A stretch of 39,137 bases of DNA. Origin: Acidobacteriota bacterium (GTDB lineage: Bacteria; Acidobacteriota; Terriglobia; Bryobacterales; JACQDG01). Shown here piece after piece: positions 1 to 10,109 of this stretch. The stretch spans positions 1-39,137 of the forward strand of contig JACQDG010000022.1 of NCBI GenBank assembly GCA_016201185.1, written 5' to 3'. The stretch's first letter is position 1, and every line of letters starts with the position of its first letter. Position numbers and translations under genes: made by a program. Under the pieces are notes generated by a model that saw nothing but the letters and a program-made list of their open reading frames with translations, was not told the origin of the DNA and did not search any database.

Positions 1-1218
1 CGCCACCACCCCGATCGAACCCGTGTAGGTGCCCGGGTAGGCCACGATAGGGTCTCCGGACATGGCCATGTAATAGCCGCCGGAAGCGGCCACGTCCGAC
101 ATGGAAATCACCATCGGCTTCTTCGTGCGCAGCAGGTTCATCTCGCGCCAAATCTGGTCGCTGGCGATAGCGTCGCCGCCGGGCGAGTCGATGCGCACGA
201 TCACGCCCTTGATGCTCTTGTCATCGCCCACATCGCGGAGCAGCCGGGTGAAGCTGTCGGAGGCGATTCCCTGGTCCCCGCCGAGCGGGTCGAACTGGTC
301 TTCGCCGCGGAAAATTCCCCCTACCGCGTAGACCAGCGCGATGCGGTTGCCGCCGGCCAGCCCCAGCGACTCCAGGCTGATGCGGTTGTAATCTTCCACT
401 TTGAGCTTTTTTACCGACTTCGCCTTGGTCAGCTTTTTCACTTCCTCCAGCACCTGGTCCTCATAGAGCAGGCCGTCGACCAGACGCGCCTGCAGGGCCT
501 GCTGGGGCAGGAACGGCCCCTTGTCGAGCGCCGCTCGCAGGTCTTCGGGGCTCATCTTCCGGGCTGCTCCTACCGTGACGAGGAAGTTGTTCAGCACGGT
601 GTCCAGAACCGAGTTGGTCACCTCGCGATAGGCGTCCGACATTTTGTTCTGGGTGAAAGGCTCAGAAAAGCTCTTATACTTGCCGATATGCTCCAGGTTG
701 GCCTCGACCCCGATCTTGCTGAGTGTGTCCTTGAAGAACATCACCTCGGCCCGCAGGCCTTTGACGTCGAGCAGCCCCTCCGGCGCAAGATAGACCTGGC
801 CAGCGGCGCTGGCCAGGTAGTACTCCCGGGTCCCGGCCACCTGGACAAATGCAATCAGCGGCTTCTTCGACTTTTTGAACTCCTCCAGGTCTGCGCGGAT
901 CTCCTGCGCCTTGCCCCACCCCACAGCCACTCCGCCTGGCTTGAGCAGGATGCCGTTGACGCGCTTGTCCACGGCGGCCTTCTGCAAGATGTCGTGGACG
1001 TCCTTCAAGGTGGGCTTCATGCCGTGCTGGAAGAAAACGGCCGAGACGTTGACCGGGTTGTGCTCCACAATTTCGCCTCCCAGGTCCAGCACCAGCGTGG
1101 AGCCGGCGGCCACGGACGGCGGTCGGCCGGAAAGGGAGACCATCACCACGACCAGCAGCAGGGCCAGGAAGAAGCAGAGAAAAATGCCGCTGATCACCCC
1201 CAGCAAATATTTCGCCAT
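1..1218 (-). CDS. sppA: Signal peptide peptidase SppA, 67K type (start in window, C-terminal end runs off the left edge)
   Basis: Absent from the ORF track because no stop lies in the window. My minus-strand translation from ATG 1218..1216 stays open for all 406 codons. It reads MAKYLLGVISGIFLCFFLALLLVVVMVSLSG (TM anchor), then ...GVIVRIDSPGGDAIASDQIWREM...ISMSDVAASGGYYMAMSGD... These are peptidase S49 motifs with the Ser in the AASGGY context. Confidence 0.85.
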   Translation of the reverse strand, partial: MAKYLLGVISGIFLCFFLALLLVVVMVSLSGRPPSVAAGSTLVLDLGGEIVEHNPVNVSAVFFQHGMKPTLKDVHDILQKAAVDKRVNGILLKPGGVAVGWGKAQEIRADLEEFKKSKKPLIAFVQVAGTREYYLASAAGQVYLAPEGLLDVKGLRAEVMFFKDTLSKIGVEANLEHIGKYKSFSEPFTQNKMSDAYREVTNSVLDTVLNNFLVTVGAARKMSPEDLRAALDKGPFLPQQALQARLVDGLLYEDQVLEEVKKLTKAKSVKKLKVEDYNRISLESLGLAGGNRIALVYAVGGIFRGEDQFDPLGGDQGIASDSFTRLLRDVGDDKSIKGVIVRIDSPGGDAIASDQIWREMNLLRTKKPMVISMSDVAASGGYYMAMSGDPIVAYPGTYTGSIGVVA

Positions 1219-1287
1219 TACAGTCCTCGCTTTCTAGATTATAAGGCTTGACGGCTGGCCCTTGCCGCGAAAGGATTTGTCGGGCTG

Positions 1288-2478
1288 CTACCCGAGCCGA
1301 TCCAGCACAGCGCCGAAAGCTTGCGGCGCGTGGGCGGCGCTGGGCAGGCTGGCCTGGGCGAGGCGGGCGTTGCCGCCGCCGCGGCCGCCCAGGGACTCGG
1401 CCACCGCTTTCACGATGTTGCCGGCATTAGCGTTCAGGTCTTCTGAAAGGGCCAGCAGGAACATCGGCGGCTGCTCCAGGGCCAGCAGGAATACTCCTCC
1501 GGGGCCGGCGGCGATGAAGGCCTGGGCCAGCAGCCGCTGGGGCTCGATGGCCCCGGACGGCTCGACCGCTTGATGCACTCTCCGGCCACGCGCATCAGCG
1601 GAAGTGGCTTGATAGAGTTCCCGGCCCTTGAAGACAGCGAGCTCCGCCTGAAGCTTCTGTTGGACCTTATCCGCCGCTTTGGCGGCTTCGATCTGCGCGG
1701 CCACCAGCGTGGGAACCTGGTCGAGCGGCGCTGAGAAAAGTTGCGCCGACCGCGCCAGGGCATTATAGTCATCGCGCGCCCGGCGCACGGCCCGGCCTCC
1801 GCAGACGAACTCCACGCGAACCGTCTGCCGCACCCGGTCCAGGCGCCGGACCAGAATGGGGCCAATCTCCCCCGTGGCTCGCACGTGAGTTCCACCGCAG
1901 GCGCTGCGGTCGCATCCCTCGATCTGCACTACCCGGATCGGGCCCTCCCGCTCGCTGGGCTTGCGAAGGCCGATCGAAGCCGCCTCTTCGGGGGAGAAGA
2001 AGCGTGCCGTCACCGGCCGGTTTTCAAAAACCAGGGCGTTGGCCCGCGCCTCGACCGCTTCGATCGGCGCTGCGCTGAGCCCCGGCGCATCCAGGTCGAT
2101 GGTCGACGTCTCCGGCCCGAGGTGGAAGCTCACGGTAGAATAGCCGGCCTGCTCGACAAACACCGCCGAAAGCAAGTGCTGGCCGGTGTGCTGTTGCATG
2201 TGGTCGAAGCGGCGAACCCAGTCGATTTCGCAAGCGACCGGGCCGGGGCGCAATTCCACGTCGACCAAGTGGGCAATGCGGTCCCCCTCATCCACCACGT
2301 CGACCACCGCAGCGCCTCCCATCCGCCCCACGTCAAACGGCTGCCCCCCCGAGGCGGGATAGAAGGCCGTGCAGTCGAGGTACGCGTAGAATCGTCCGCC
2401 AGCAGGGCGCACCTCGACGATCTCAGCCTCAAAGCGAGTCAGGTAGGAGTCCGTGTAATAGAGCCGCTCGGTTCCCAC
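1288..2478 (-). CDS. alaX: AlaX-L type alanyl-tRNA editing protein (Ser-tRNA(Ala) deacylase-like)
   Basis: 396-aa ORF with HxxxH (HTGQHLL) and CxxxH (CGGTHV) motifs of the AlaRS editing domain. It also has a C-terminal DHHA1-like segment (LGGRGGGNARLAQ). Confidence 0.8.
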   Translation of the reverse strand: MGTERLYYTDSYLTRFEAEIVEVRPAGGRFYAYLDCTAFYPASGGQPFDVGRMGGAAVVDVVDEGDRIAHLVDVELRPGPVACEIDWVRRFDHMQQHTGQHLLSAVFVEQAGYSTVSFHLGPETSTIDLDAPGLSAAPIEAVEARANALVFENRPVTARFFSPEEAASIGLRKPSEREGPIRVVQIEGCDRSACGGTHVRATGEIGPILVRRLDRVRQTVRVEFVCGGRAVRRARDDYNALARSAQLFSAPLDQVPTLVAAQIEAAKAADKVQQKLQAELAVFKGRELYQATSADARGRRVHQAVEPSGAIEPQRLLAQAFIAAGPGGVFLLALEQPPMFLLALSEDLNANAGNIVKAVAESLGGRGGGNARLAQASLPSAAHAPQAFGAVLDRLG

Positions 2479-2481
2479 TCC

Positions 2482-4221
2482 CTACTTGCTTTCGACGGCG
2501 ATAACGACTGTATTGCTGGTGCTGCCGTCGGGCCAGATGAGCTGTACCGGCACTGCTGGATTCGGCACGACCCCATCCGGCACCCGCACGTTGAGTTGGT
2601 AGAGTCCCACAAAGCTCGGAGTGAAGCCGATGTAATCGGGGACCGTGGAAATGCGGAATACCGCCGTATGGAAGACCACCTGCGGCGTCCCCGTCACAGT
2701 GGAAAGCGGCTTGGCGCCTGCTGCCGCTCCGGTCGCCACCGGCGGGTTCACCGGGCCGAAGCCGCTGCCGTAAAACACCAGCACATCGCAGATCCGGGCG
2801 GGGGCTTTGGGGATCGCGGCAAACGCGGGAATATCCGGTACCGGGAAACCATTATTGCGGGTGGCATTCTGGGCAATGCCGTAGTTCGTCCCGGGGAAGA
2901 AGTAGAAGCCGGCTGCCCGTCGCGCTACCGGCACGGTAATGGTGTTTCCCCGCTGTCCGTTCAACTCCACCCAGACGGCAGCCGTGCCGGAGGCTTCAAA
3001 CGGCATCTGGAAATTGATCTGCCCCGGCGAAGCATAGATCAGCGGGACAGATGTGCCGCCTACCTTCACCACGGCGTCCGCCAGGGTGGTCGGCAAGGGC
3101 ACTGACGAGGCGAAGGCCACGCCGCTGGCCATTTGCGACCCGAACAGGGAGGCCAGCGCTCCGGCTGCTACCGGGGAAGTAAAGGAAGCCGCGTCGACAA
3201 CGCCGCCGAAAAAAGCCAGCGGCGGGGAGACCGCCTGCACCTCGAACTCTACGGGCACGGTCAGCGGGTTGTTGGCTGCATTGGTATCAATAGTAACAGA
3301 ACCGGTATAGAACCCGGCGGCCAGCGGCCCCGCATCCGCGTTCACCTGGATCGACCCGTCGGATTGGACTGCCGCGCTGAGCCAGTCGCCGCCAGCGGCG
3401 GTCGCCCCGCTGACGCTCAGGGTCCCCTGGCCGGCATTGGCCACGCTGACGGTCTGCGTTCCGGCCGCCGCCCCCTGCACTACCGTGAAGTTCAGAGCCT
3501 CGGCGCTCGGCTTCGCGATGGGCTGGGCGGTAACATGCAGCACCACGGGAACGGACTTATTGTCGGCGGCAAACGCGGAGTTGCTCACAGCCACCGACCC
3601 GTTGTAATCTCCTGCCGCCATTCCGTTCCGAACCTTGGCCTGGACCGCGTGGGTGTAGAGAAACTGGAACGACCCCATGCCGGAACTAGAAACGGCCAGC
3701 CACGGCCCCCCGGATTGCGTGGTGGCCTTCAATACGGGGACTGGCCCGCCGGGCGTTTGAAAGGTGGCCGAATCTTCTGCTCCTGCGTTCGGCGGTAGAT
3801 AAAAGTCCACCCGCGCCGGCACGTTGCCGCCGACGTAGATCTTCACGGGAATGGTCTGCGGTGTGTCGAAAGCGTTGGGGTCATTGATTGTGATCAGCCC
3901 GGTGTAAGTCCCTTCCGCCAGCGAAGCGCTGTCGAACAACACCTTGATGGGCAGGCAGGTTTTGGAGGCGTCGAAGGAGCACTTGGCCGCGGCGCCCACC
4001 GCCGGCGTCAGCCAGGGGTAGTTGCCCGAGACCTGCAGGTTCAGCGATCCATCGCCGATGTTATAGGCCTCAATAACAGTGGTCGTAGGACCATCAGCGC
4101 CGGTCTGAACCCAGATGGGAAGCAACTTGGCGCCGTTCAATCGCAGAATCGGCGCGGCCCAGACGGTCGTCGTGCAGCACAGAAGCACACAATAAGCGAC
4201 AAAATGCCTTTGAAGAGTCAT
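2482..4221 (-). CDS. Secreted repeat protein with TIGR03437-type (Solibacter uncharacterized C-terminal) domain
   Basis: The track ORF is 2482..4263. I prefer the internal ATG at 4221 because MTLQRHFVAYCVLLCCTTTVWAAP is a signal peptide. The N-terminal two thirds look like tandem Ig-like beta-sandwich segments. The C-terminal part (ASFTSPVAAGALASLFG...PLIYASPGQINFQMPFE...VLVFYGSGFGPVNP...YQLNVRVPDG) matches my memory of TIGR03437. Confidence 0.7.
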   Translation of the reverse strand: MTLQRHFVAYCVLLCCTTTVWAAPILRLNGAKLLPIWVQTGADGPTTTVIEAYNIGDGSLNLQVSGNYPWLTPAVGAAAKCSFDASKTCLPIKVLFDSASLAEGTYTGLITINDPNAFDTPQTIPVKIYVGGNVPARVDFYLPPNAGAEDSATFQTPGGPVPVLKATTQSGGPWLAVSSSGMGSFQFLYTHAVQAKVRNGMAAGDYNGSVAVSNSAFAADNKSVPVVLHVTAQPIAKPSAEALNFTVVQGAAAGTQTVSVANAGQGTLSVSGATAAGGDWLSAAVQSDGSIQVNADAGPLAAGFYTGSVTIDTNAANNPLTVPVEFEVQAVSPPLAFFGGVVDAASFTSPVAAGALASLFGSQMASGVAFASSVPLPTTLADAVVKVGGTSVPLIYASPGQINFQMPFEASGTAAVWVELNGQRGNTITVPVARRAAGFYFFPGTNYGIAQNATRNNGFPVPDIPAFAAIPKAPARICDVLVFYGSGFGPVNPPVATGAAAGAKPLSTVTGTPQVVFHTAVFRISTVPDYIGFTPSFVGLYQLNVRVPDGVVPNPAVPVQLIWPDGSTSNTVVIAVESK

Positions 4222-4311
4222 AGAATTGTTCCGTTCAGATTTGAATGGGACGCGGAAACACAATTATAGCAGATTGACGGGCCGGGATAGCAGACCCTTT
4301 GTGCGTACAGC

Positions 4312-4370
4312 TACACCGTATCGGTCTGCGACTCCCGCCAGAACTTTCGCACCCGCTCGAACCCTTCCTG
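4312..4370. repeat. Left 59-bp direct repeat (orphan copy of the cvpA 3' end)
   Basis: tacaccgtatcggtctgcgactcccgccagaactttcgcacccgctcgaacccttcctg is identical to 6952..7010. The flanks diverge immediately on both sides. Confidence 0.95.
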
Positions 4371-4483
4371 CCCCCCTCGGGAGTGGCGGCCCGGACGAGA
4401 GCAGCCAGTCAGTCCCCAGGCTCTTGGCCAGCTTAAGATTAAGATAAGACGCCATAGAACTTGAGAACCATGAAGGGTTCCGT

Positions 4484-5467
4484 TCACGTGGGTTTGATCA
4501 AATCGCAGGCTTCCGCAATCTGCTCGGCCAAACGCCGGAATTCAACCTCACAAATGTGCGCAAGCTGCGCATGACTGCCGATGGCTCCGTCCGCGGGCCG
4601 AAGGTCGAACATCGGCTTGCGCGCGTCCTGCGCCATCGGCATGAGGCTCCGGAAGTTCCGCAGGGTGGCAAGACAATGGTTGTCCTCGTCGCCGCCGCCA
4701 ATCTTACCCGGCTTCTGGCCCAAAACTGACTCGCGATAAACAGCAGGGATCCGGTCTAACCACCGACCGTAGGCGCGCACCGGGCGGTCGAGACGGACGG
4801 CATGTTGTAGCACAACGTACCCTGCGGGAGTCATGAGGCCCTCGGGCAAGTCGATCTTCGTCGAAACGAGCTTCTGGACCTGCTGCCACTGTTGTCGCCA
4901 ATCACGAACTGTCGGACCAAGGTTTCTTAGACCTTGAAGAGAGAAGAGATCTGCAGCCAGCGGGATCACGAGAAAATCTGCCGCTAGCAAGGCCGATCGA
5001 TTGATTGCACCCAGATTCGGACCCACATCGAGGAGGGCCACCGCGGCTCCGACATCGCTTGCGGCCTTCCTGATGACGCGGTGGAAGGCTGATGTGGTTC
5101 TCAGAGCGGCTGGGTCTCCCTCGTAGCCCCGAGGCCAACTGGCGGAGAGTCTGTCTTCAAAGCGGGAAAGGCCTAAATCCCCAGCTATAACCGAGAGACC
5201 TTCTGCAACTTCTAATGGAAACGGCTCTTTAATATCCCCCGTCCCTTCGAGTATTGGATTGACGCAGGCCAGAATCGTTGCGGTCTCCTCCTCCCAAAGG
5301 GCCTCTAGTAGGTCTTCGTCAAAGAAGGCACAGGTTAGGTTGGCCTGCGGGTCAAGGTCTACTGCAACTGTCGGATAGCCGATTCGGGGCAGCATGTGCG
5401 CGAGATGGTATGCCAACGTGGTCTTTCCTACCCCGCCTTTGTTGTTGAAGAAGGCGATCGTTTTCAC
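4484..5467 (-). CDS. ParA/MinD-superfamily ATPase (deviant Walker A)
   Basis: 327 aa, MKTIAFFNNKGGVGKTTLAYHLA (KGGxGKT deviant Walker A), VDLDPQANLT, LLDVGPNLG. The GTG start at 5467 overlaps the upstream stop (GTGA), so translation is probably coupled. Confidence 0.85.
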   Translation of the reverse strand: MKTIAFFNNKGGVGKTTLAYHLAHMLPRIGYPTVAVDLDPQANLTCAFFDEDLLEALWEEETATILACVNPILEGTGDIKEPFPLEVAEGLSVIAGDLGLSRFEDRLSASWPRGYEGDPAALRTTSAFHRVIRKAASDVGAAVALLDVGPNLGAINRSALLAADFLVIPLAADLFSLQGLRNLGPTVRDWRQQWQQVQKLVSTKIDLPEGLMTPAGYVVLQHAVRLDRPVRAYGRWLDRIPAVYRESVLGQKPGKIGGGDEDNHCLATLRNFRSLMPMAQDARKPMFDLRPADGAIGSHAQLAHICEVEFRRLAEQIAEACDLIKPT

Positions 5468-6651
5468 GGCCGCCTCCAGACGGTGACCAATACGTGGGTC
5501 GGCTCAAACCTAAACTCAGAGAGCTGATTACCGTTTGCAGACAGCGCCGCTTTGGCCCTTGCGATGCCAGTGCCGAACCGCTCCACATAGCCCAGCGCTT
5601 TCATTGCCTCGGCGATAACGGGGTTTCGGTAATCGCTAACTCGTTCGTAATTGTCCTCTGTCACCTGACCGTATAGACCGCCGGGGTTCTGCATTTCCAC
5701 GCGGTTTGCGAACCAGTTGATGCGTACGGGGGCGTTAGTTCCTTCGTATGTTCGATGCATCACAGAATTAAGTGCAAACTCGCGGATGGCAACCATGGGG
5801 TAATCCGGCAGTCCCTCGTGATGAAGCCCGGTAGCGGGAACCCGTGCCGTGTGGATCTGAAGCGGGAGCAAGCTGTCAAGTTGAGTGAGTTGAGTCAGCA
5901 GGTTGCCCGTGATCTGCTTTTCGTCCTGCACTGGGTCTGCCAAAGTTTCACCATCAAACCGGACCAACTGGATGTAGGCCCCAGGCAGGTACTCAAGTGG
6001 ATCTGCGCCAAACACCAATACGCCAGCGTGTGTGGGCGCCTGACTTCTTAAGTCAAAGAAACGTAGCGAGGCGAGTTGTTCCTCAACGGTTCTGTTGTTC
6101 TCGGAGATCACGCCCCGATCTACCACCCTGGGGAGATAATCGATCCGGAATGTGTTAAGGAGCAGGTCGTTAATCGTCGCGCCGGCACACGGCCGCTGAT
6201 CAAAAGTCCGTGCCCCGGCGACCTGGCGTTCGGTCAACCGCCGCTCCTCCTCAAGCGTGGCAATCGCCCGACGTGGACCTACACGGATCCAGACTTGGCC
6301 CTTGAAACGAACCGGGGGTGTGTCTGAAGGGTATACCTCCACCACCGCGACCGGGGATCCTCGAAGGGTTACCTTCTGGACCGTCATAGTTGGTATAGGG
6401 AGAATATTGCCATCCGATCGCATGTCCGCTAAAGTTCGCAGAAGTTCGTCAGTGATCAGGAGCGAGGTCGGCAGACCCGCGTCGTTTACTCCGACAAATA
6501 AGTACCCTGGAGATCGGTGCCCAGGGAGGTCGTTAGCAAACGCACAGATGGCCTGTCGGATCTTGTCTCGCTCCACTAGGGACGCCTTACGCTCGACCTG
6601 ATCCGATTCCAAGTCCGCCATCAGCCGCTCGAGTTCTTCGACTGTAAGCAT
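5464..6651 (-). CDS. AlbA_2 (Schlafen-like) + HATPase_c_4 + wHTH protein, of the kind usually annotated RecG-like / putative transcriptional regulator
   Basis: 395 aa. The N-terminal LESDQVERK...ICAFANDLPG...GYLFVGVNDAG follows the AlbA_2 pattern. The C-terminal NSVMHRTY...QNPGGLYG...YRNPVIAEAMKALGYVERFGTGI follows the HATPase_c_4/wHTH pattern. Confidence 0.75.
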   Translation of the reverse strand: MLTVEELERLMADLESDQVERKASLVERDKIRQAICAFANDLPGHRSPGYLFVGVNDAGLPTSLLITDELLRTLADMRSDGNILPIPTMTVQKVTLRGSPVAVVEVYPSDTPPVRFKGQVWIRVGPRRAIATLEEERRLTERQVAGARTFDQRPCAGATINDLLLNTFRIDYLPRVVDRGVISENNRTVEEQLASLRFFDLRSQAPTHAGVLVFGADPLEYLPGAYIQLVRFDGETLADPVQDEKQITGNLLTQLTQLDSLLPLQIHTARVPATGLHHEGLPDYPMVAIREFALNSVMHRTYEGTNAPVRINWFANRVEMQNPGGLYGQVTEDNYERVSDYRNPVIAEAMKALGYVERFGTGIARAKAALSANGNQLSEFRFEPTHVLVTVWRRP

Positions 6652-6950
6652 TGTCGGATGTGCTGTTCAGTCGTATGCTTTGAGGGACAGGTGCCCGAAC
6701 CCTGGGCACTGCGCTGTTCAGCACGGATCTCTATCTTAATTCATATACCTTTTGGAAGCCCATCAGCGACGCTGGCGAGCCTCCTGTCTGACGTAACCGT
6801 CAGAGTGCCGTTGCCTTCCTAAGGCGGCTTTCCTTTGACTCTTTTCGTTAGCCGCGAACTTATTGCGGGGGTCGCTTGAGCAGGAGGCGCGAACCCTGCG
6901 GAGTTAGGAAGCGGTTAGCTGCTGGCTGCTTGCTGCCTTGAGTTGTACTT

Positions 6951-7496
6951 TTACACCGTATCGGTCTGCGACTCCCGCCAGAACTTTCGCACCCGCTCGA
7001 ACCCTTCCTGGAAACCGTCCTTCAGCTTGCGCGGGGCGACGGAAACAATGGCGCGGGCGCACTGCAACACCATGGGCGCGAGGCGCGACCTGCCCACCAA
7101 TTCAGTCGGCTCTCTGCCTGGCGCGAAGGTCACCAGCGCCAGCACCAGCGCCGCCGTCAGCAGCAAACCCCGGACTAAGCCAAACGCCGCCCCGAGCAAC
7201 CGGTCGAACCACCGCAGCCCACTCGCCTTCACCAGCTTCCCCATCAACTTGGAAACGATTGCTCCCAAAATCAGAAACGCGACGAGAATGACAACAAAGC
7301 CCACAAAGTCGGCTATTCCCCGGCTGCTGGTGTACGGCTCAAAACGCCTCCCGACACCGGGGTACCACCACAGCGCCGCCAGCAGACCCAGGACCAGCCC
7401 TGCCAGGCTTATCAGTTCGTGGGTCAGTCCCTTGACGATGGCGCCCACAAACGAAATCAATATTATGACGGCGATCAACCAGTCCAGCCAGTTCAT
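6951..7496 (-). CDS. cvpA: CvpA family (colicin V production) membrane protein
   Basis: 181 aa with four hydrophobic segments: MNWLDWLIAVIILISFVGAIVKG...LSGLRWFDRLLGAAFGLVRG. The ATGA overlap with purC (7493..7496) indicates an operon. Confidence 0.8.
   Translation of the reverse strand: MNWLDWLIAVIILISFVGAIVKGLTHELISLAGLVLGLLAALWWYPGVGRRFEPYTSSRGIADFVGFVVILVAFLILGAIVSKLMGKLVKASGLRWFDRLLGAAFGLVRGLLLTAALVLALVTFAPGREPTELVGRSRLAPMVLQCARAIVSVAPRKLKDGFQEGFERVRKFWRESQTDTV
6952..7010. repeat. Right 59-bp direct repeat (= last 19 codons plus stop of cvpA)
   Basis: Identical to 4312..4370. On the minus strand it reads FQEGFERVRKFWRESQTDTV*. Confidence 0.95.
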
Positions 7497-9878: not shown

Positions 9879-10109
9879 TCAGAGCTTCTCGGCGACCTCC
9901 AGGAACTCCTCCACGGAGAGTCCTGCCCTTGCAATGAGGGTTCGAAGGCTTCCTCGAGCGACTTCCGGATGGTTTGGAATGGAGAGCGTGGCGACATGAC
10001 CAGGCCTGGTCATGATAATGTGGCTGCCCCGCTGTCGAGCCACCTGCCAGCCAAGTCTCTCAAAGACCCGCAGAACCTGCCGTGGACGCAGGATCGGTAT
10101 GACAGCCAC
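9879..10109 (-). CDS. hicA: HicA-family (YcfA-like) mRNA interferase toxin
   Basis: 76 aa, ...VLRVFERLGWQVARQRGSHIIMTRPG... (GSH motif). The GTG start shares 1 nt with the hicB stop. Confidence 0.8.
   Translation of the reverse strand: MAVIPILRPRQVLRVFERLGWQVARQRGSHIIMTRPGHVATLSIPNHPEVARGSLRTLIARAGLSVEEFLEVAEKL

What the first reader, a model, noticed from the sequence alone, without database searches (positions are those of the whole stretch)
4312..7010. 2.64-kb lower-GC islet bounded by perfect 59-bp direct repeats that regenerate the 3' end of cvpA, with no recombinase
4312..4370 and 6952..7010 are identical over 59 nt.
- The right copy is the authentic end of cvpA (FQEGFERVRKFWRESQTDTV*).
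- The left copy is an orphan fragment 2,640 bp away with unrelated flanks.

This is the classic attL/attR footprint of a circular element integrating into the 3' end of a gene while restoring it. Two features are unusual:
- The target is a protein-coding gene rather than a tRNA.
- The element carries only two genes, with no integrase, replication or transfer function.

GC in spot-counted 60-nt lines is 52-55% inside the islet, against 68% in cvpA.
Basis: seen in the sequence. Interest (0 to 1): 0.65.

Follow-up and report, generated by a model that had tools for sequence, protein, structure and literature searches.

The report
Integrase-free defence cassette with duplicated gene-end
A foreign two-gene, probably anti-phage cassette (a Schlafen-type nuclease plus a ParA-like ATPase) was inserted exactly at the stop codon of cvpA and duplicated that gene's last 59 bases; this way of moving small defence genes without any integrase is already known, but its mechanism is unsolved.

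Summary
Window 4312-4370 and 6952-7010 are identical over 59 nt, and the sequence occurs only twice in the assembly. The repeats bracket 2,581 bp of lower-GC DNA (57.2% against 63.3%).

**Cargo.** Two overlapping genes only: an AlbA_2/Schlafen + HATPase_c_4 protein and a ParA-like ATPase.

**Empty site.** Four family-level relatives have cvpA directly next to the downstream Ig-like gene, with a single cvpA end. The left copy is the displaced original end: it has a TAG stop and is followed by the conserved native intergenic motif. The right copy is the one followed by foreign DNA.

**Wider pattern.**
- The same gene pair is a tightly bounded cassette in many phyla.
- About 7 of roughly 70 independent loci carry flanking direct duplications of another target (about 42-380 nt). 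The targets are the ends of amidohydrolase, acnB, PilZ and acyl-CoA-ligase genes and of tRNA-Cys, and none of these units encodes a recombinase.
- The two copies differ mostly synonymously and in a mosaic way.

**Verdict.** This matches "insertion with long target duplication", described for restriction-modification genes. It is not a demonstrated attL/attR of a site-specific element. Host homologous recombination is the most likely motor, and a trans-acting integrase is not excluded. It is a clean new member of a known kind.

The parts
4222..4311 (-). Native cvpA-downstream intergenic region, which is also the upstream region of the Ig-like/TIG gene. It contains the family-conserved motif TATAAT...TTCCGCGTCC.
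   Evidence: The same motif follows the cvpA stop in the empty-site relatives L131, L011, L013 and L015. This shows that this flank is the original neighbour of the cvpA end.
4312..4370 (-). Left copy of the 59-nt direct repeat. It is the displaced original 3' end of cvpA (an orphan fragment; its stop codon TAG covers 4311-4313).
   Evidence: Identical to 6952-7010. It is contiguous with the native downstream flank, and relative L131 also ends ...ACGGTGTAG.
4371..4483 (-). 113-nt foreign non-coding stretch between the ParA-like gene stop and the orphan copy (inner right end of the insert).
   Evidence: No similarity to the sequence upstream of the repeat in cvpA. No match in any related cassette locus.
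4484..5467 (-). ParA-like ATPase gene (327 aa) with the deviant Walker A motif KGGVGKT. Its start overlaps the stop of the upstream gene by 4 nt.
   Evidence: Pfam AAA_31 (E = 1.5e-26) and CbiA. Homologues of 67-81% identity sit next to the Schlafen-type gene in many contigs.
5464..6651 (-). Schlafen-type protein gene (395 aa) with an AlbA_2 nuclease-like domain and an HATPase_c_4 (GHKL-type) domain.
   Evidence: Pfam SLFN_AlbA_2 (E = 1e-15) and HATPase_c_4 (E = 4.5e-18). PADLOC gives only partial hits to pAgo-associated proteins. There are thousands of homologues. E15, E20 and D57 are invariant in an alignment of 28 homologues.
6652..6951 (-). 300-nt foreign non-coding leader between the present cvpA stop and the Schlafen-type gene. 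It probably holds the cassette's promoter.
   Evidence: No ORF in any of the three frames, and no HTH_17 remnant. No Rfam match. Not conserved in related loci. GC is 55.3%.
6952..7010 (-). Right copy of the 59-nt direct repeat. It is the present 3' end of cvpA (stop TAA at 6951-6953) and is joined to foreign DNA immediately after 'TA' of the stop.
6951..7496 (-). cvpA (Colicin V production protein family, 181 aa), intact.
   Evidence: PF02674, E = 3.7e-34. The synteny alaX-like / Ig-like / cvpA / purC / tnaA is conserved in relatives.

Best explanation
**What it is.** The 2,581 bp at 4371-6951 are a horizontally acquired two-gene cassette. It encodes a Schlafen-type nuclease/GHKL-ATPase protein translationally coupled to a ParA-like ATPase, and it is probably an anti-phage module.

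**What happened.** The cassette was inserted exactly at the stop codon of cvpA, and the last 59 bp of the gene were duplicated. This is an 'insertion with long target duplication'.
- cvpA stays intact. The right copy now ends in TAA.
- The original end, with its TAG stop and the native intergenic region, was pushed 2.64 kb downstream as an orphan.

**How it most likely works.** The unit encodes no recombinase.
1. The cassette travels physically joined to a piece of a host gene's 3' end.
2. It is integrated by the recipient's own homologous recombination through that piece. This could be a Campbell-type single crossover of a circularised fragment. Once a repeat-flanked unit exists, it could also be a double crossover that uses the orphan copy and the gene body as the two arms.
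3. The direct repeats also allow RecA-type excision as a 2,640-bp circle.

**Shown:** the repeat, the cargo, the foreign composition, the empty site in relatives, and the recurrence of the footprint around the same cassette at other targets.

**Inferred:** the recombination route, the circular intermediate and the defence function.
For: **In the window.**
- A perfect 59-nt repeat, unique to these two places.
- The insert has the lowest GC of the window.
- Relatives G003, G005, G006 and L131 have cvpA followed within about 30-170 nt by the Ig-like gene, with only one cvpA end.
- The orphan's outer flank carries the native intergenic motif.
- No tyrosine or serine recombinase lies on this contig. 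The only hits in the genome are on other contigs.
- There are no terminal inverted repeats and no tRNA or Rfam match.

**The cassette elsewhere.**
- The Schlafen-type gene is followed by the ParA-like gene in 74 of 80 genome loci from many phyla.
- Between related genomes, homology ends within tens of nt of the two genes.
- Flanking direct repeats were found in 5 of 53 unique loci, against 0 of 53 shifted control segments and 0 inverted (corrected).
- Two further cases lie on short contigs.

**The other repeat-flanked units.** All are 2.5-3.1 kb with no integrase.

| Locus | Target | Repeat | Identity |
|---|---|---|---|
| L020 | amidohydrolase 3' end | 184-193 nt | 94% |
| L081 | acnB 3' end | 380 nt | 95% |
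| L107 | PilZ gene end | 54 nt | 91% |
| L119-128 | AMP-binding gene end | about 270 nt | 89-97% |
| L102 | tRNA-Cys 3' end | about 42 nt | perfect |

**Evidence for recombination.**
- Differences between the copies fall mostly at third codon positions: [3,1,10] in L020 and [4,2,14] in L081.
- The copies are mosaic. L081 has a 150-nt perfect block, and the last 30 nt next to the cassette are only 50-60% identical.
- In L119-128 the copy linked to the cassette is constant across samples, while the orphan copies and their outer flanks vary.

**Precedent.** R-M genes inserted with 46-423-bp target duplications and no mobility genes (PMC2853133).
Against: - No conspecific genome with the empty site was found. 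The best CvpA relatives are 62% identical, so the empty site is shown only at family level.
- No circle or empty-site junction was seen. Only 3-5x assembled contigs were available.
- In this window the repeat is perfect, so it carries no mosaic signal of its own. The recombination argument rests on other loci.
- 59 nt is near the lower limit for efficient RecA-dependent recombination.
- How the cassette first became joined to the stop codon of a gene is not explained by homologous recombination.
- Two observations are what a tyrosine-integrase element would give: a tRNA 3' end as target in L102, and an excisionase-like HTH_17 gene in the L119-128 variant.
- The flanking-repeat enrichment is modest (5/53 against 0/53, one-sided p about 0.03).
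Confidence: 0.55

Rival explanations
1. The unit is an integrase-less site-specific element, like a CIME or a satellite. In this reading the 59-mers are true attL/attR sites, and the unit is excised and integrated by a tyrosine or serine recombinase supplied in trans by a helper island, prophage or ICE with the same site specificity.
For: - The geometry is exactly that of attL/attR with restoration of a gene's 3' end.
- In L102 the same cassette sits between copies of the 3' end of tRNA-Cys, the classical integrase target.
- The L119-128 variant carries an excisionase-type HTH_17 gene.
- The own genome has integrase and resolvase genes on other contigs, and it is only 65% complete.
- CIMEs are a defined class (PMC5704250).
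Against: - The conserved content (the two genes) is combined with at least six unrelated targets and repeat lengths of 42-380 nt. Each would need a different helper specificity.
- There is no third copy of the 59-mer in the assembly.
- No integrase lies within 5-6 kb in any repeat-flanked locus.
- The mosaic, gradient-like divergence of the repeats is not expected from a crossover at one fixed core.
- CIMEs are decayed elements with variable content at a fixed site, which is the opposite pattern.
Confidence: 0.2
2. The duplication arose de novo by break repair. Two nicks 59 nt apart on opposite strands at the cvpA end gave long overhangs. These were filled in, and a linear foreign fragment was ligated in by non-homologous end joining. 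The result is a true 59-bp target-site duplication.
For: - The repeat is perfect and ends sharply on both sides, without microhomology beyond it.
- The genome encodes Ku (176.8 bits).
- Long and variable duplications without mobility genes are what Furuta et al. tentatively linked to double-strand breakage.
- The cargo includes a nuclease-type domain.
Against: - In the other loci the two copies are two alleles (mostly synonymous, mosaic differences), not decayed identical copies.
- Nothing explains why a cut should fall at a stop codon.
- The model has no direct support in bacteria, to my knowledge.
Confidence: 0.12
3. The islet is the remnant of a larger integrase-bearing island that integrated site-specifically into cvpA. 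That island later lost everything except this cargo by internal deletion.
For: - Such decay is the accepted origin of CIMEs.
- The cvpA / Ig-like gene junction is a variable spot in the family. G001 and L130 carry an enolase-type gene pair there, with a Fic gene as well in G001.
Against: - There are no gene fragments or pseudogenes in the 300-nt and 113-nt spacers.
- The same minimal content (only the two genes, 2.5-3.1 kb) recurs between repeats at about seven unrelated sites. Independent deletions would not be expected to produce this.
- The other occupants of the site in relatives have no repeats.
Confidence: 0.08
4. The structure is an assembly artefact. A 2.64-kb free circle sharing 59 nt with cvpA was threaded into the chromosome contig by the assembler.
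For: The repeat is short enough to confuse a de Bruijn graph, and coverage is only 3-5x.
Against: - Contigs from two different runs contain the integrated-type junctions. The flank to the repeat to the ParA side is 3933-4862, and the leader to the repeat to the cvpA body is 6896-7072. Neither the attB-type nor the attP-type junction was found.
- The two stop codons differ (TAG and TAA), as expected for two real places.
- The same architecture is present in long-read assemblies of other organisms (L081, L102).
Confidence: 0.03

Closest known systems
Insertion with long target duplication of restriction-modification gene complexes (Nobusato et al. 2000, Gene 259:99, cited from memory; Furuta, Abe & Kobayashi 2010, NAR, PMC2853133)
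   Same: - A small block of defence-type genes with no integrase or transposase.
- Flanked by a long direct duplication (over 30 bp) of a sequence that is single-copy at the empty site.
- The repeat is unique in the genome and overlaps the 3' end of a gene.
- Repeat length varies from case to case (46-423 bp there; 42-380 nt for this cassette).
- The mechanism is unknown.
   Different: - The cargo is a Schlafen-type nuclease/ATPase plus a ParA-like ATPase, not an R-M system.
- Here one and the same cassette shows the footprint at several unrelated targets in several phyla.
- The copies show synonymous, mosaic divergence that points to homologous recombination.
- The empty site is shown only in family-level relatives, not within the species.
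Cis-mobilizable elements (CIMEs) and other integrase-less derivatives of integrative elements (PMC5704250)
   Same: [quoted passage not shown]
- No integration or transfer genes.
- Could in principle be moved by a recombinase in trans.
   Different: - CIMEs keep the att sites of a known integrase family at a fixed target, and their content is variable and decayed.
- Here the content is constant and intact, while the targets and repeat lengths vary.
- No helper element or shared core was found.
Prokaryotic Schlafen defence proteins, pSlfn-HisKinase(-HTH) class (Perez Taboada et al. 2026, Nat Microbiol, PMC13056530)
   Same: The cargo protein has the Schlafen/AlbA_2 nuclease domain fused to a histidine-kinase-like (HATPase_c_4) ATPase domain. 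This is the commonest domain composition in that survey.
   Different: - The ParA-like partner gene does not appear in a term search of that paper.
- No member of this two-gene form has been tested for defence, as far as I could find.
Phage and island integration into the 3' ends of protein genes with an element-borne replacement end (for example lambdoid phage 21 / e14 in icd; from general knowledge)
   Same: - The target gene is kept whole by a substitute 3' end.
- The displaced native end remains as an orphan.
- Similarity between the two copies stops at the stop codon.
   Different: Those elements encode their own integrase and have one fixed target. This unit encodes none.

Membership tests
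Insertion with long target duplication (criteria of Furuta et al. 2010) | The inserted segment carries defence-type genes and is shorter than 20 kb. | tested here: met
   The insert is 2,581 bp with two genes. Schlafen/AlbA_2 + HATPase_c_4 is a defence-associated architecture. Defence activity itself was not tested.
Insertion with long target duplication (criteria of Furuta et al. 2010) | Direct duplication of the target longer than 30 bp. | tested here: met
   59 nt at 100% identity.
Insertion with long target duplication (criteria of Furuta et al. 2010) | No mobility genes (integrase, transposase, resolvase) in or next to the insert. | tested here: met
   Pfam of both cargo genes and of the neighbours. 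PF00589 and PF00239 hits lie only on other contigs.
Insertion with long target duplication (criteria of Furuta et al. 2010) | The repeat aligns with a single-copy target in a genome that lacks the insert (the empty site). | tested here: met
   G003, G005, G006 and L131 have one cvpA end followed directly by the intergenic motif and the Ig-like gene, with no second copy. These are family-level relatives only (55-64% CvpA identity); no conspecific genome was available.
Insertion with long target duplication (criteria of Furuta et al. 2010) | The repeat is not a dispersed repeat family. | tested here: met
   Two copies only in the own assembly. By contrast, the repeat at locus L042 was shown to be a REP-like family and was discarded.
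Site-specific integrative element / CIME | attL and attR share a core recognised by a cognate recombinase. | tested here: inconclusive
   Direct repeats are present. However, there is no cognate recombinase, no third site and no helper in a 65%-complete genome.
Site-specific integrative element / CIME | Excision to a circle and a repaired attB can be detected. | tested here: inconclusive
   No such joints were seen in four runs, but only low-depth assembled contigs were available.
Site-specific integrative element / CIME | The same target and the same repeat end-points occur in related elements. | tested here: not met
   Related cassettes lie at unrelated targets, with repeats of 42-380 nt.
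Transposon / insertion sequence | Terminal inverted repeats, a transposase and a short target duplication. | tested here: not met
   No inverted repeats at the ends, no transposase, and the duplication is 59 nt.
Integron gene cassette | An attC recombination site at the 3' end of the cassette and an integron integrase context. | tested here: not met
   Homology between related cassettes ends 10-70 nt after the ParA-like stop, leaving no conserved attC-sized element. There is no Rfam or structural match and no integrase.
pSlfn-HisKinase(-HTH) Schlafen defence proteins | A Schlafen/AlbA_2 nuclease domain fused to a histidine-kinase-like ATPase domain. | tested here: met
   PF04326 covers residues 15-127 and PF13749 covers residues 307-390. 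Acidic residues E15, E20 and D57 are invariant in 28 homologues. Their spacing resembles the Schlafen catalytic triad, but that comparison is from memory.
pSlfn-HisKinase(-HTH) Schlafen defence proteins | Protection against phage; tRNA cleavage. | not testable with these tools
   Needs expression and phage challenge in a laboratory strain.

The most novel reading that the evidence does not exclude
Small defence cassettes such as this Schlafen-ParA pair may use a dedicated, integrase-free life cycle.

- The duplicated gene end would not be a scar. It would be a portable homology arm that always travels with the cassette.
- Any genome with the conserved target gene could then take the cassette up through its own RecA, whatever lies downstream, and release it again as a circle.
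- A bolder version is that the cassette's own nuclease/ATPase proteins provoke the break at the gene end that starts the first insertion.

This would explain several observations:
- The footprint recurs around one cassette in several phyla.
- Similarity between the two copies always stops at the stop codon.
- The last roughly 30 nt next to the cassette are much more diverged than the rest.
- No copy of this clade is found on known plasmids or phages.
Probability: 0.2. Interest if true: 0.8.

Novelty: new member of a known kind. Interest (0 to 1): 0.5.

Why it matters
How small defence modules spread so widely without plasmids, phages or recombinases is an open question. "Insertion with long target duplication" has had no mechanism since it was described in 2000.

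This locus is a clean, recent example with a perfect repeat. The comparison made here shows that one and the same two-gene cassette carries the footprint at several unrelated gene ends in different phyla, and that the repeats look recombined rather than decayed.

That gives a concrete, testable model: a gene-end homology arm plus host RecA. It also provides a compact 2.6-kb test object that can be rebuilt in a laboratory strain. The cargo itself, a Schlafen-type nuclease with an obligate ParA-like partner, is a candidate untested immune module.

Tried and rejected
- **Reads.** Four groundwater runs hold the locus, but only as 3-5x assembled contigs. No empty-site or circle joints were seen, so there is no power to exclude them.
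- **Conspecific empty site.** The metagenome scan with CvpA gave at best 62% identity. The own family has no same-genus genome.
- **Locus L042.** It first counted as repeat-flanked, but its repeat is a REP-like family with at least 40 copies, so it was dropped.
- **Translated (tblastx) search for older duplications.** It was too noisy in GC-rich DNA, with direct and inverted hits alike, so it was not used.
- **Conserved element ends.** The 300-nt and 113-nt spacers match nothing in related loci. There are no terminal inverted repeats.
- **An HTH_17 (excisionase-like) gene.** It is present in the L119-128 variant but leaves no trace in this window.
- **Empty site for the acnB case (L081).** The left-flank gene is not next to acnB in relatives, so the test was uninformative. 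Laying runs on L081 found only conserved acnB fragments from other bacteria.
- **Plasmid and phage collections.** No homologue of the Schlafen-type protein at E <= 1e-30.
- **Other scans.** Rfam, tRNA and promoter/terminator scans gave nothing informative.


Full report
**1. The observation**

Window 4312-4370 and 6952-7010 are identical over 59 nt. With three mismatches the match extends to 66 nt.

A search of the whole assembly finds the sequence at these two places only. The assembly is 3.64 Mb in 497 contigs, 65% complete, from a groundwater metagenome. The 59-mer is absent from about 110 related loci fetched later.

The right copy is the last 19 codons plus 'TA' of the stop codon of an intact 181-aa CvpA gene (6951-7496, minus strand; PF02674, E = 3.7e-34).

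Between the copies lie only two minus-strand genes that overlap by 4 nt:
- 5464-6651: a 395-aa protein with SLFN_AlbA_2 and HATPase_c_4 domains.
- 4484-5467: a 327-aa ParA-like ATPase (AAA_31/CbiA).

A 300-nt leader and a 113-nt trailer are non-coding.

The insert has 57.2% GC against 63.3% for the rest of the window. It is the lowest-GC 2.58-kb stretch in the 39 kb.

Contigs from two separate public runs contain the two integrated-type junctions, at 3933-4862 and 6896-7072. The structure is therefore not an assembly artefact.

**2. It is an insertion, and the left copy is the original gene end**

The gene order alaX-like / Ig-like (IPT/TIG) gene / cvpA / purC / tnaA is conserved in the family.
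- In G003, G005, G006 and the metagenome locus L131, the cvpA stop is followed within about 30-170 nt by the Ig-like gene.
- Only one cvpA end is present in these relatives, with no orphan copy.
- Their short intergenic region carries the motif TATAAT...(T)TCCGCGTCC.

The same motif follows the left copy in the window. The left copy ends ...ACGGTGTAG, exactly like cvpA of L131. The left copy is therefore the displaced native 3' end together with its native downstream DNA. The right copy (stop TAA) is joined to foreign DNA immediately after 'TA'.

Two relatives (G001, L130) have other genes at this junction: an enolase-type pair, with a Fic gene as well in G001. They have no repeats, so the junction is a variable spot.

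**3. No recombinase**

- Neither cargo protein matches a recombinase family.
- Tyrosine-recombinase and resolvase hits in the genome lie on other contigs.
- There are no terminal inverted repeats, and no tRNA or Rfam match.
- There is no third copy of the site.

**4. The cargo is a widespread, tightly bounded two-gene cassette**

Both proteins have thousands of homologues. The closest are about 80% identical and often lie on the same contigs.

In 74 of 80 genome loci from Acidobacteriota, Cyanobacteria, Proteobacteria, Chloroflexota, Planctomycetota, Actinomycetota and others, the Schlafen-type gene is followed directly by the ParA-like gene. Between related genomes, DNA homology stops within tens of nt of the two genes.

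No homologue was found in 72,556 plasmids or 50,697 phage records at E <= 1e-30.

The protein architecture is the commonest class of prokaryotic Schlafen defence proteins, pSlfn-HisKinase (PMC13056530). A term search of that paper does not find the ParA-like partner.

Earlier notes of this scan independently call the pair a candidate undescribed defence cassette. I treated those notes as leads only.

**5. The footprint recurs around the same cassette at other targets**

I compared 1.5-2.5 kb on either side of the cassette in every locus.
- Direct repeats (E < 1e-8) flank it in 6 of 53 unique loci.
- Segments of the same size shifted to the left gave 0 of 53, and inverted matches gave 0.
- One of the six (L042) proved to be a REP-like family with at least 40 copies and was dropped. 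That leaves 5 of 53.
- Two more cases lie on short contigs.

| Locus | Duplicated target | Repeat | Identity | Note |
|---|---|---|---|---|
| L020 | Amidohydro_3 gene 3' end | 184-193 nt | 94% | |
| L081 | acnB 3' end | 380 nt | 95% | long-read assembly |
| L107 | PilZ gene end | 54 nt | 91% | |
| L119-128 | AMP-binding (acyl-CoA ligase) gene end | about 270 nt | 89-97% | this variant has an extra HTH_17 gene |
| L102 | tRNA-Cys 3' end | about 42 nt | perfect | no integrase within 5 kb |
| L045 | unidentified sequence | 128 nt | 89% | |

Sources.

Where tested (L045, L081, L107), the repeats are two-copy in their genomes. Every repeat-bounded unit is 2.5-3.1 kb and holds only the cassette. The target gene can be co-oriented with the cassette or convergent to it.

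**6. What the repeats look like**

- In L020 and L081 the differences between the two copies fall mainly at third codon positions: [3,1,10] and [4,2,14]. That is 8 and 12 synonymous against 5 and 5 mostly conservative changes, with no stops or indels. They are two alleles of a functional gene end, not one copy decaying.
- In every protein-gene case, similarity ends at the stop codon.
- In L020 and L081 the last 30 nt next to the cassette are only 50-60% identical, while the rest is 90-100%. L081 includes a 150-nt perfect block.
- In the L119-128 family the same cassette was sampled in several metagenomes. The copy fused to the gene and adjoining the cassette is constant there. The orphan copies form at least three haplotypes, have two different internal deletions and have different outer flanks.

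These are signatures of homologous recombination.
- The piece of gene nearest the cassette always travels with it. Crossovers cannot resolve in the last few tens of nt next to heterologous DNA.
- The rest of the repeat is exchanged with each host.
- A crossover at a single fixed core, or simple decay of a perfect duplication, would not give this pattern.

**7. Interpretation for this window**

The locus fits all criteria used by Furuta, Abe and Kobayashi for 'insertion with long target duplication' of restriction-modification genes (PMC2853133):
- a short defence-type insert;
- a duplication longer than 30 bp;
- no mobility genes;
- a single-copy target at the empty site;
- a repeat that is unique in the genome.

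That paper lists 46-423-bp duplications, some overlapping gene 3' ends, in several phyla, and leaves the mechanism open.

I therefore file the islet as a new member of that kind, with a different cargo.

My preferred mechanism (about 0.55) is that the cassette arrived joined to a cvpA 3' end from a close relative and was integrated by the host's homologous recombination. This would be a single crossover of a circularised fragment, or a double crossover that uses the orphan copy and the gene body as arms. The repeats also permit recombinational excision as a 2,640-bp circle.

The perfect 59-nt repeat means the event is recent or the donor was nearly identical. The window itself therefore carries no mosaic signal, and this part is inference from the other loci.

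**8. Rivals**

- **A trans-acting site-specific recombinase (CIME-like; PMC5704250), about 0.2.**
  - For: the geometry, the tRNA-Cys case and the HTH_17 gene.
  - Against: many unrelated targets combined with constant content, no helper or third site, and the mosaic repeats.
- **A de novo duplication by staggered breaks and end joining, about 0.12.**
  - For: it suits the perfect repeat, and the genome has Ku.
  - Against: it does not explain the allelic repeats elsewhere.
- **A decayed larger island, about 0.08.** There are no remnants, and identical minimal content recurs at about seven sites.
- **An assembly artefact, about 0.03**.

**9. Limits**

- The empty site is shown only at family level.
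- No conspecific genome, raw reads or excision products were available.
- The enrichment of flanking repeats is modest (one-sided p about 0.03).
- How a cassette first becomes joined to a stop codon remains unexplained.
- Other notes of this scan report the same footprint around other defence islets. They agree with this reading, but they are unchecked and are not independent evidence.

Noticed in passing
window 4311-4487 (minus strand): A 58-aa ORF starts with GTG overlapping the ParA-like stop (GTGA) and reads through the 113-nt trailer into the orphan cvpA end, finishing with the CvpA C-terminus. It is a chimeric ORF created by the insertion. Whether it is expressed is unknown.
   Followed up: no
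L012 (G001) 605-4511; L130 5547-7918: Two family-level relatives have different genes at the same cvpA / Ig-like gene junction. Both carry two tandem enolase-superfamily genes, and G001 also has a 514-aa Fic-domain gene. There are no flanking repeats. The junction is a variable spot.
   Followed up: partly
window 4247-4272 and the equivalent place in L011, L013, L015 and L131: A conserved motif, TATAAT-like followed by (T)TCCGCGTCC, lies upstream of the Ig-like/TIG gene in all family members. It is probably that gene's promoter or operator. It suggests the gene starts at the ATG at 4221 rather than the TTG at 4263.
   Followed up: partly
L102 5876-5946 and 8443-8485: In a Solirubrobacterales long-read MAG the same cassette sits directly after tRNA-Cys. 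It is followed by a perfect copy of the last roughly 42 nt of that tRNA, and no integrase lies within 5 kb.
   Followed up: partly
L119-L123, L125-L128: This cassette variant has an extra 71-aa HTH_17 (excisionase/MerR-type) gene in front. The orphan copies of the acyl-CoA-ligase gene end carry two different internal deletions (39 and 75 nt) between short repeats, and they have different outer flanks in different samples.
   Followed up: partly
L110 6001-6987 (same assembly as L020): A ParA-like gene 78% identical to the window's stands alone, without a Schlafen-type partner, directly after a response-regulator/AraC gene.
   Followed up: no
L116 77-1120; L124 2757-3719: An IS110-family transposase lies next to one close relative of the cassette, and an IS91-type Y2 transposase lies next to another. 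This is probably coincidental.
   Followed up: no
L042 5370-5425 and 8498-8553: A REP-like palindromic element with at least 40 copies in that genome brackets the cassette. This is a warning that short flanking repeats can be dispersed families.
   Followed up: yes
window 9879-10109: A HicA-like toxin ORF (76 aa) lies next to the tryptophanase-like gene. It is part of a small TA pair that others in this scan have also noted.
   Followed up: no
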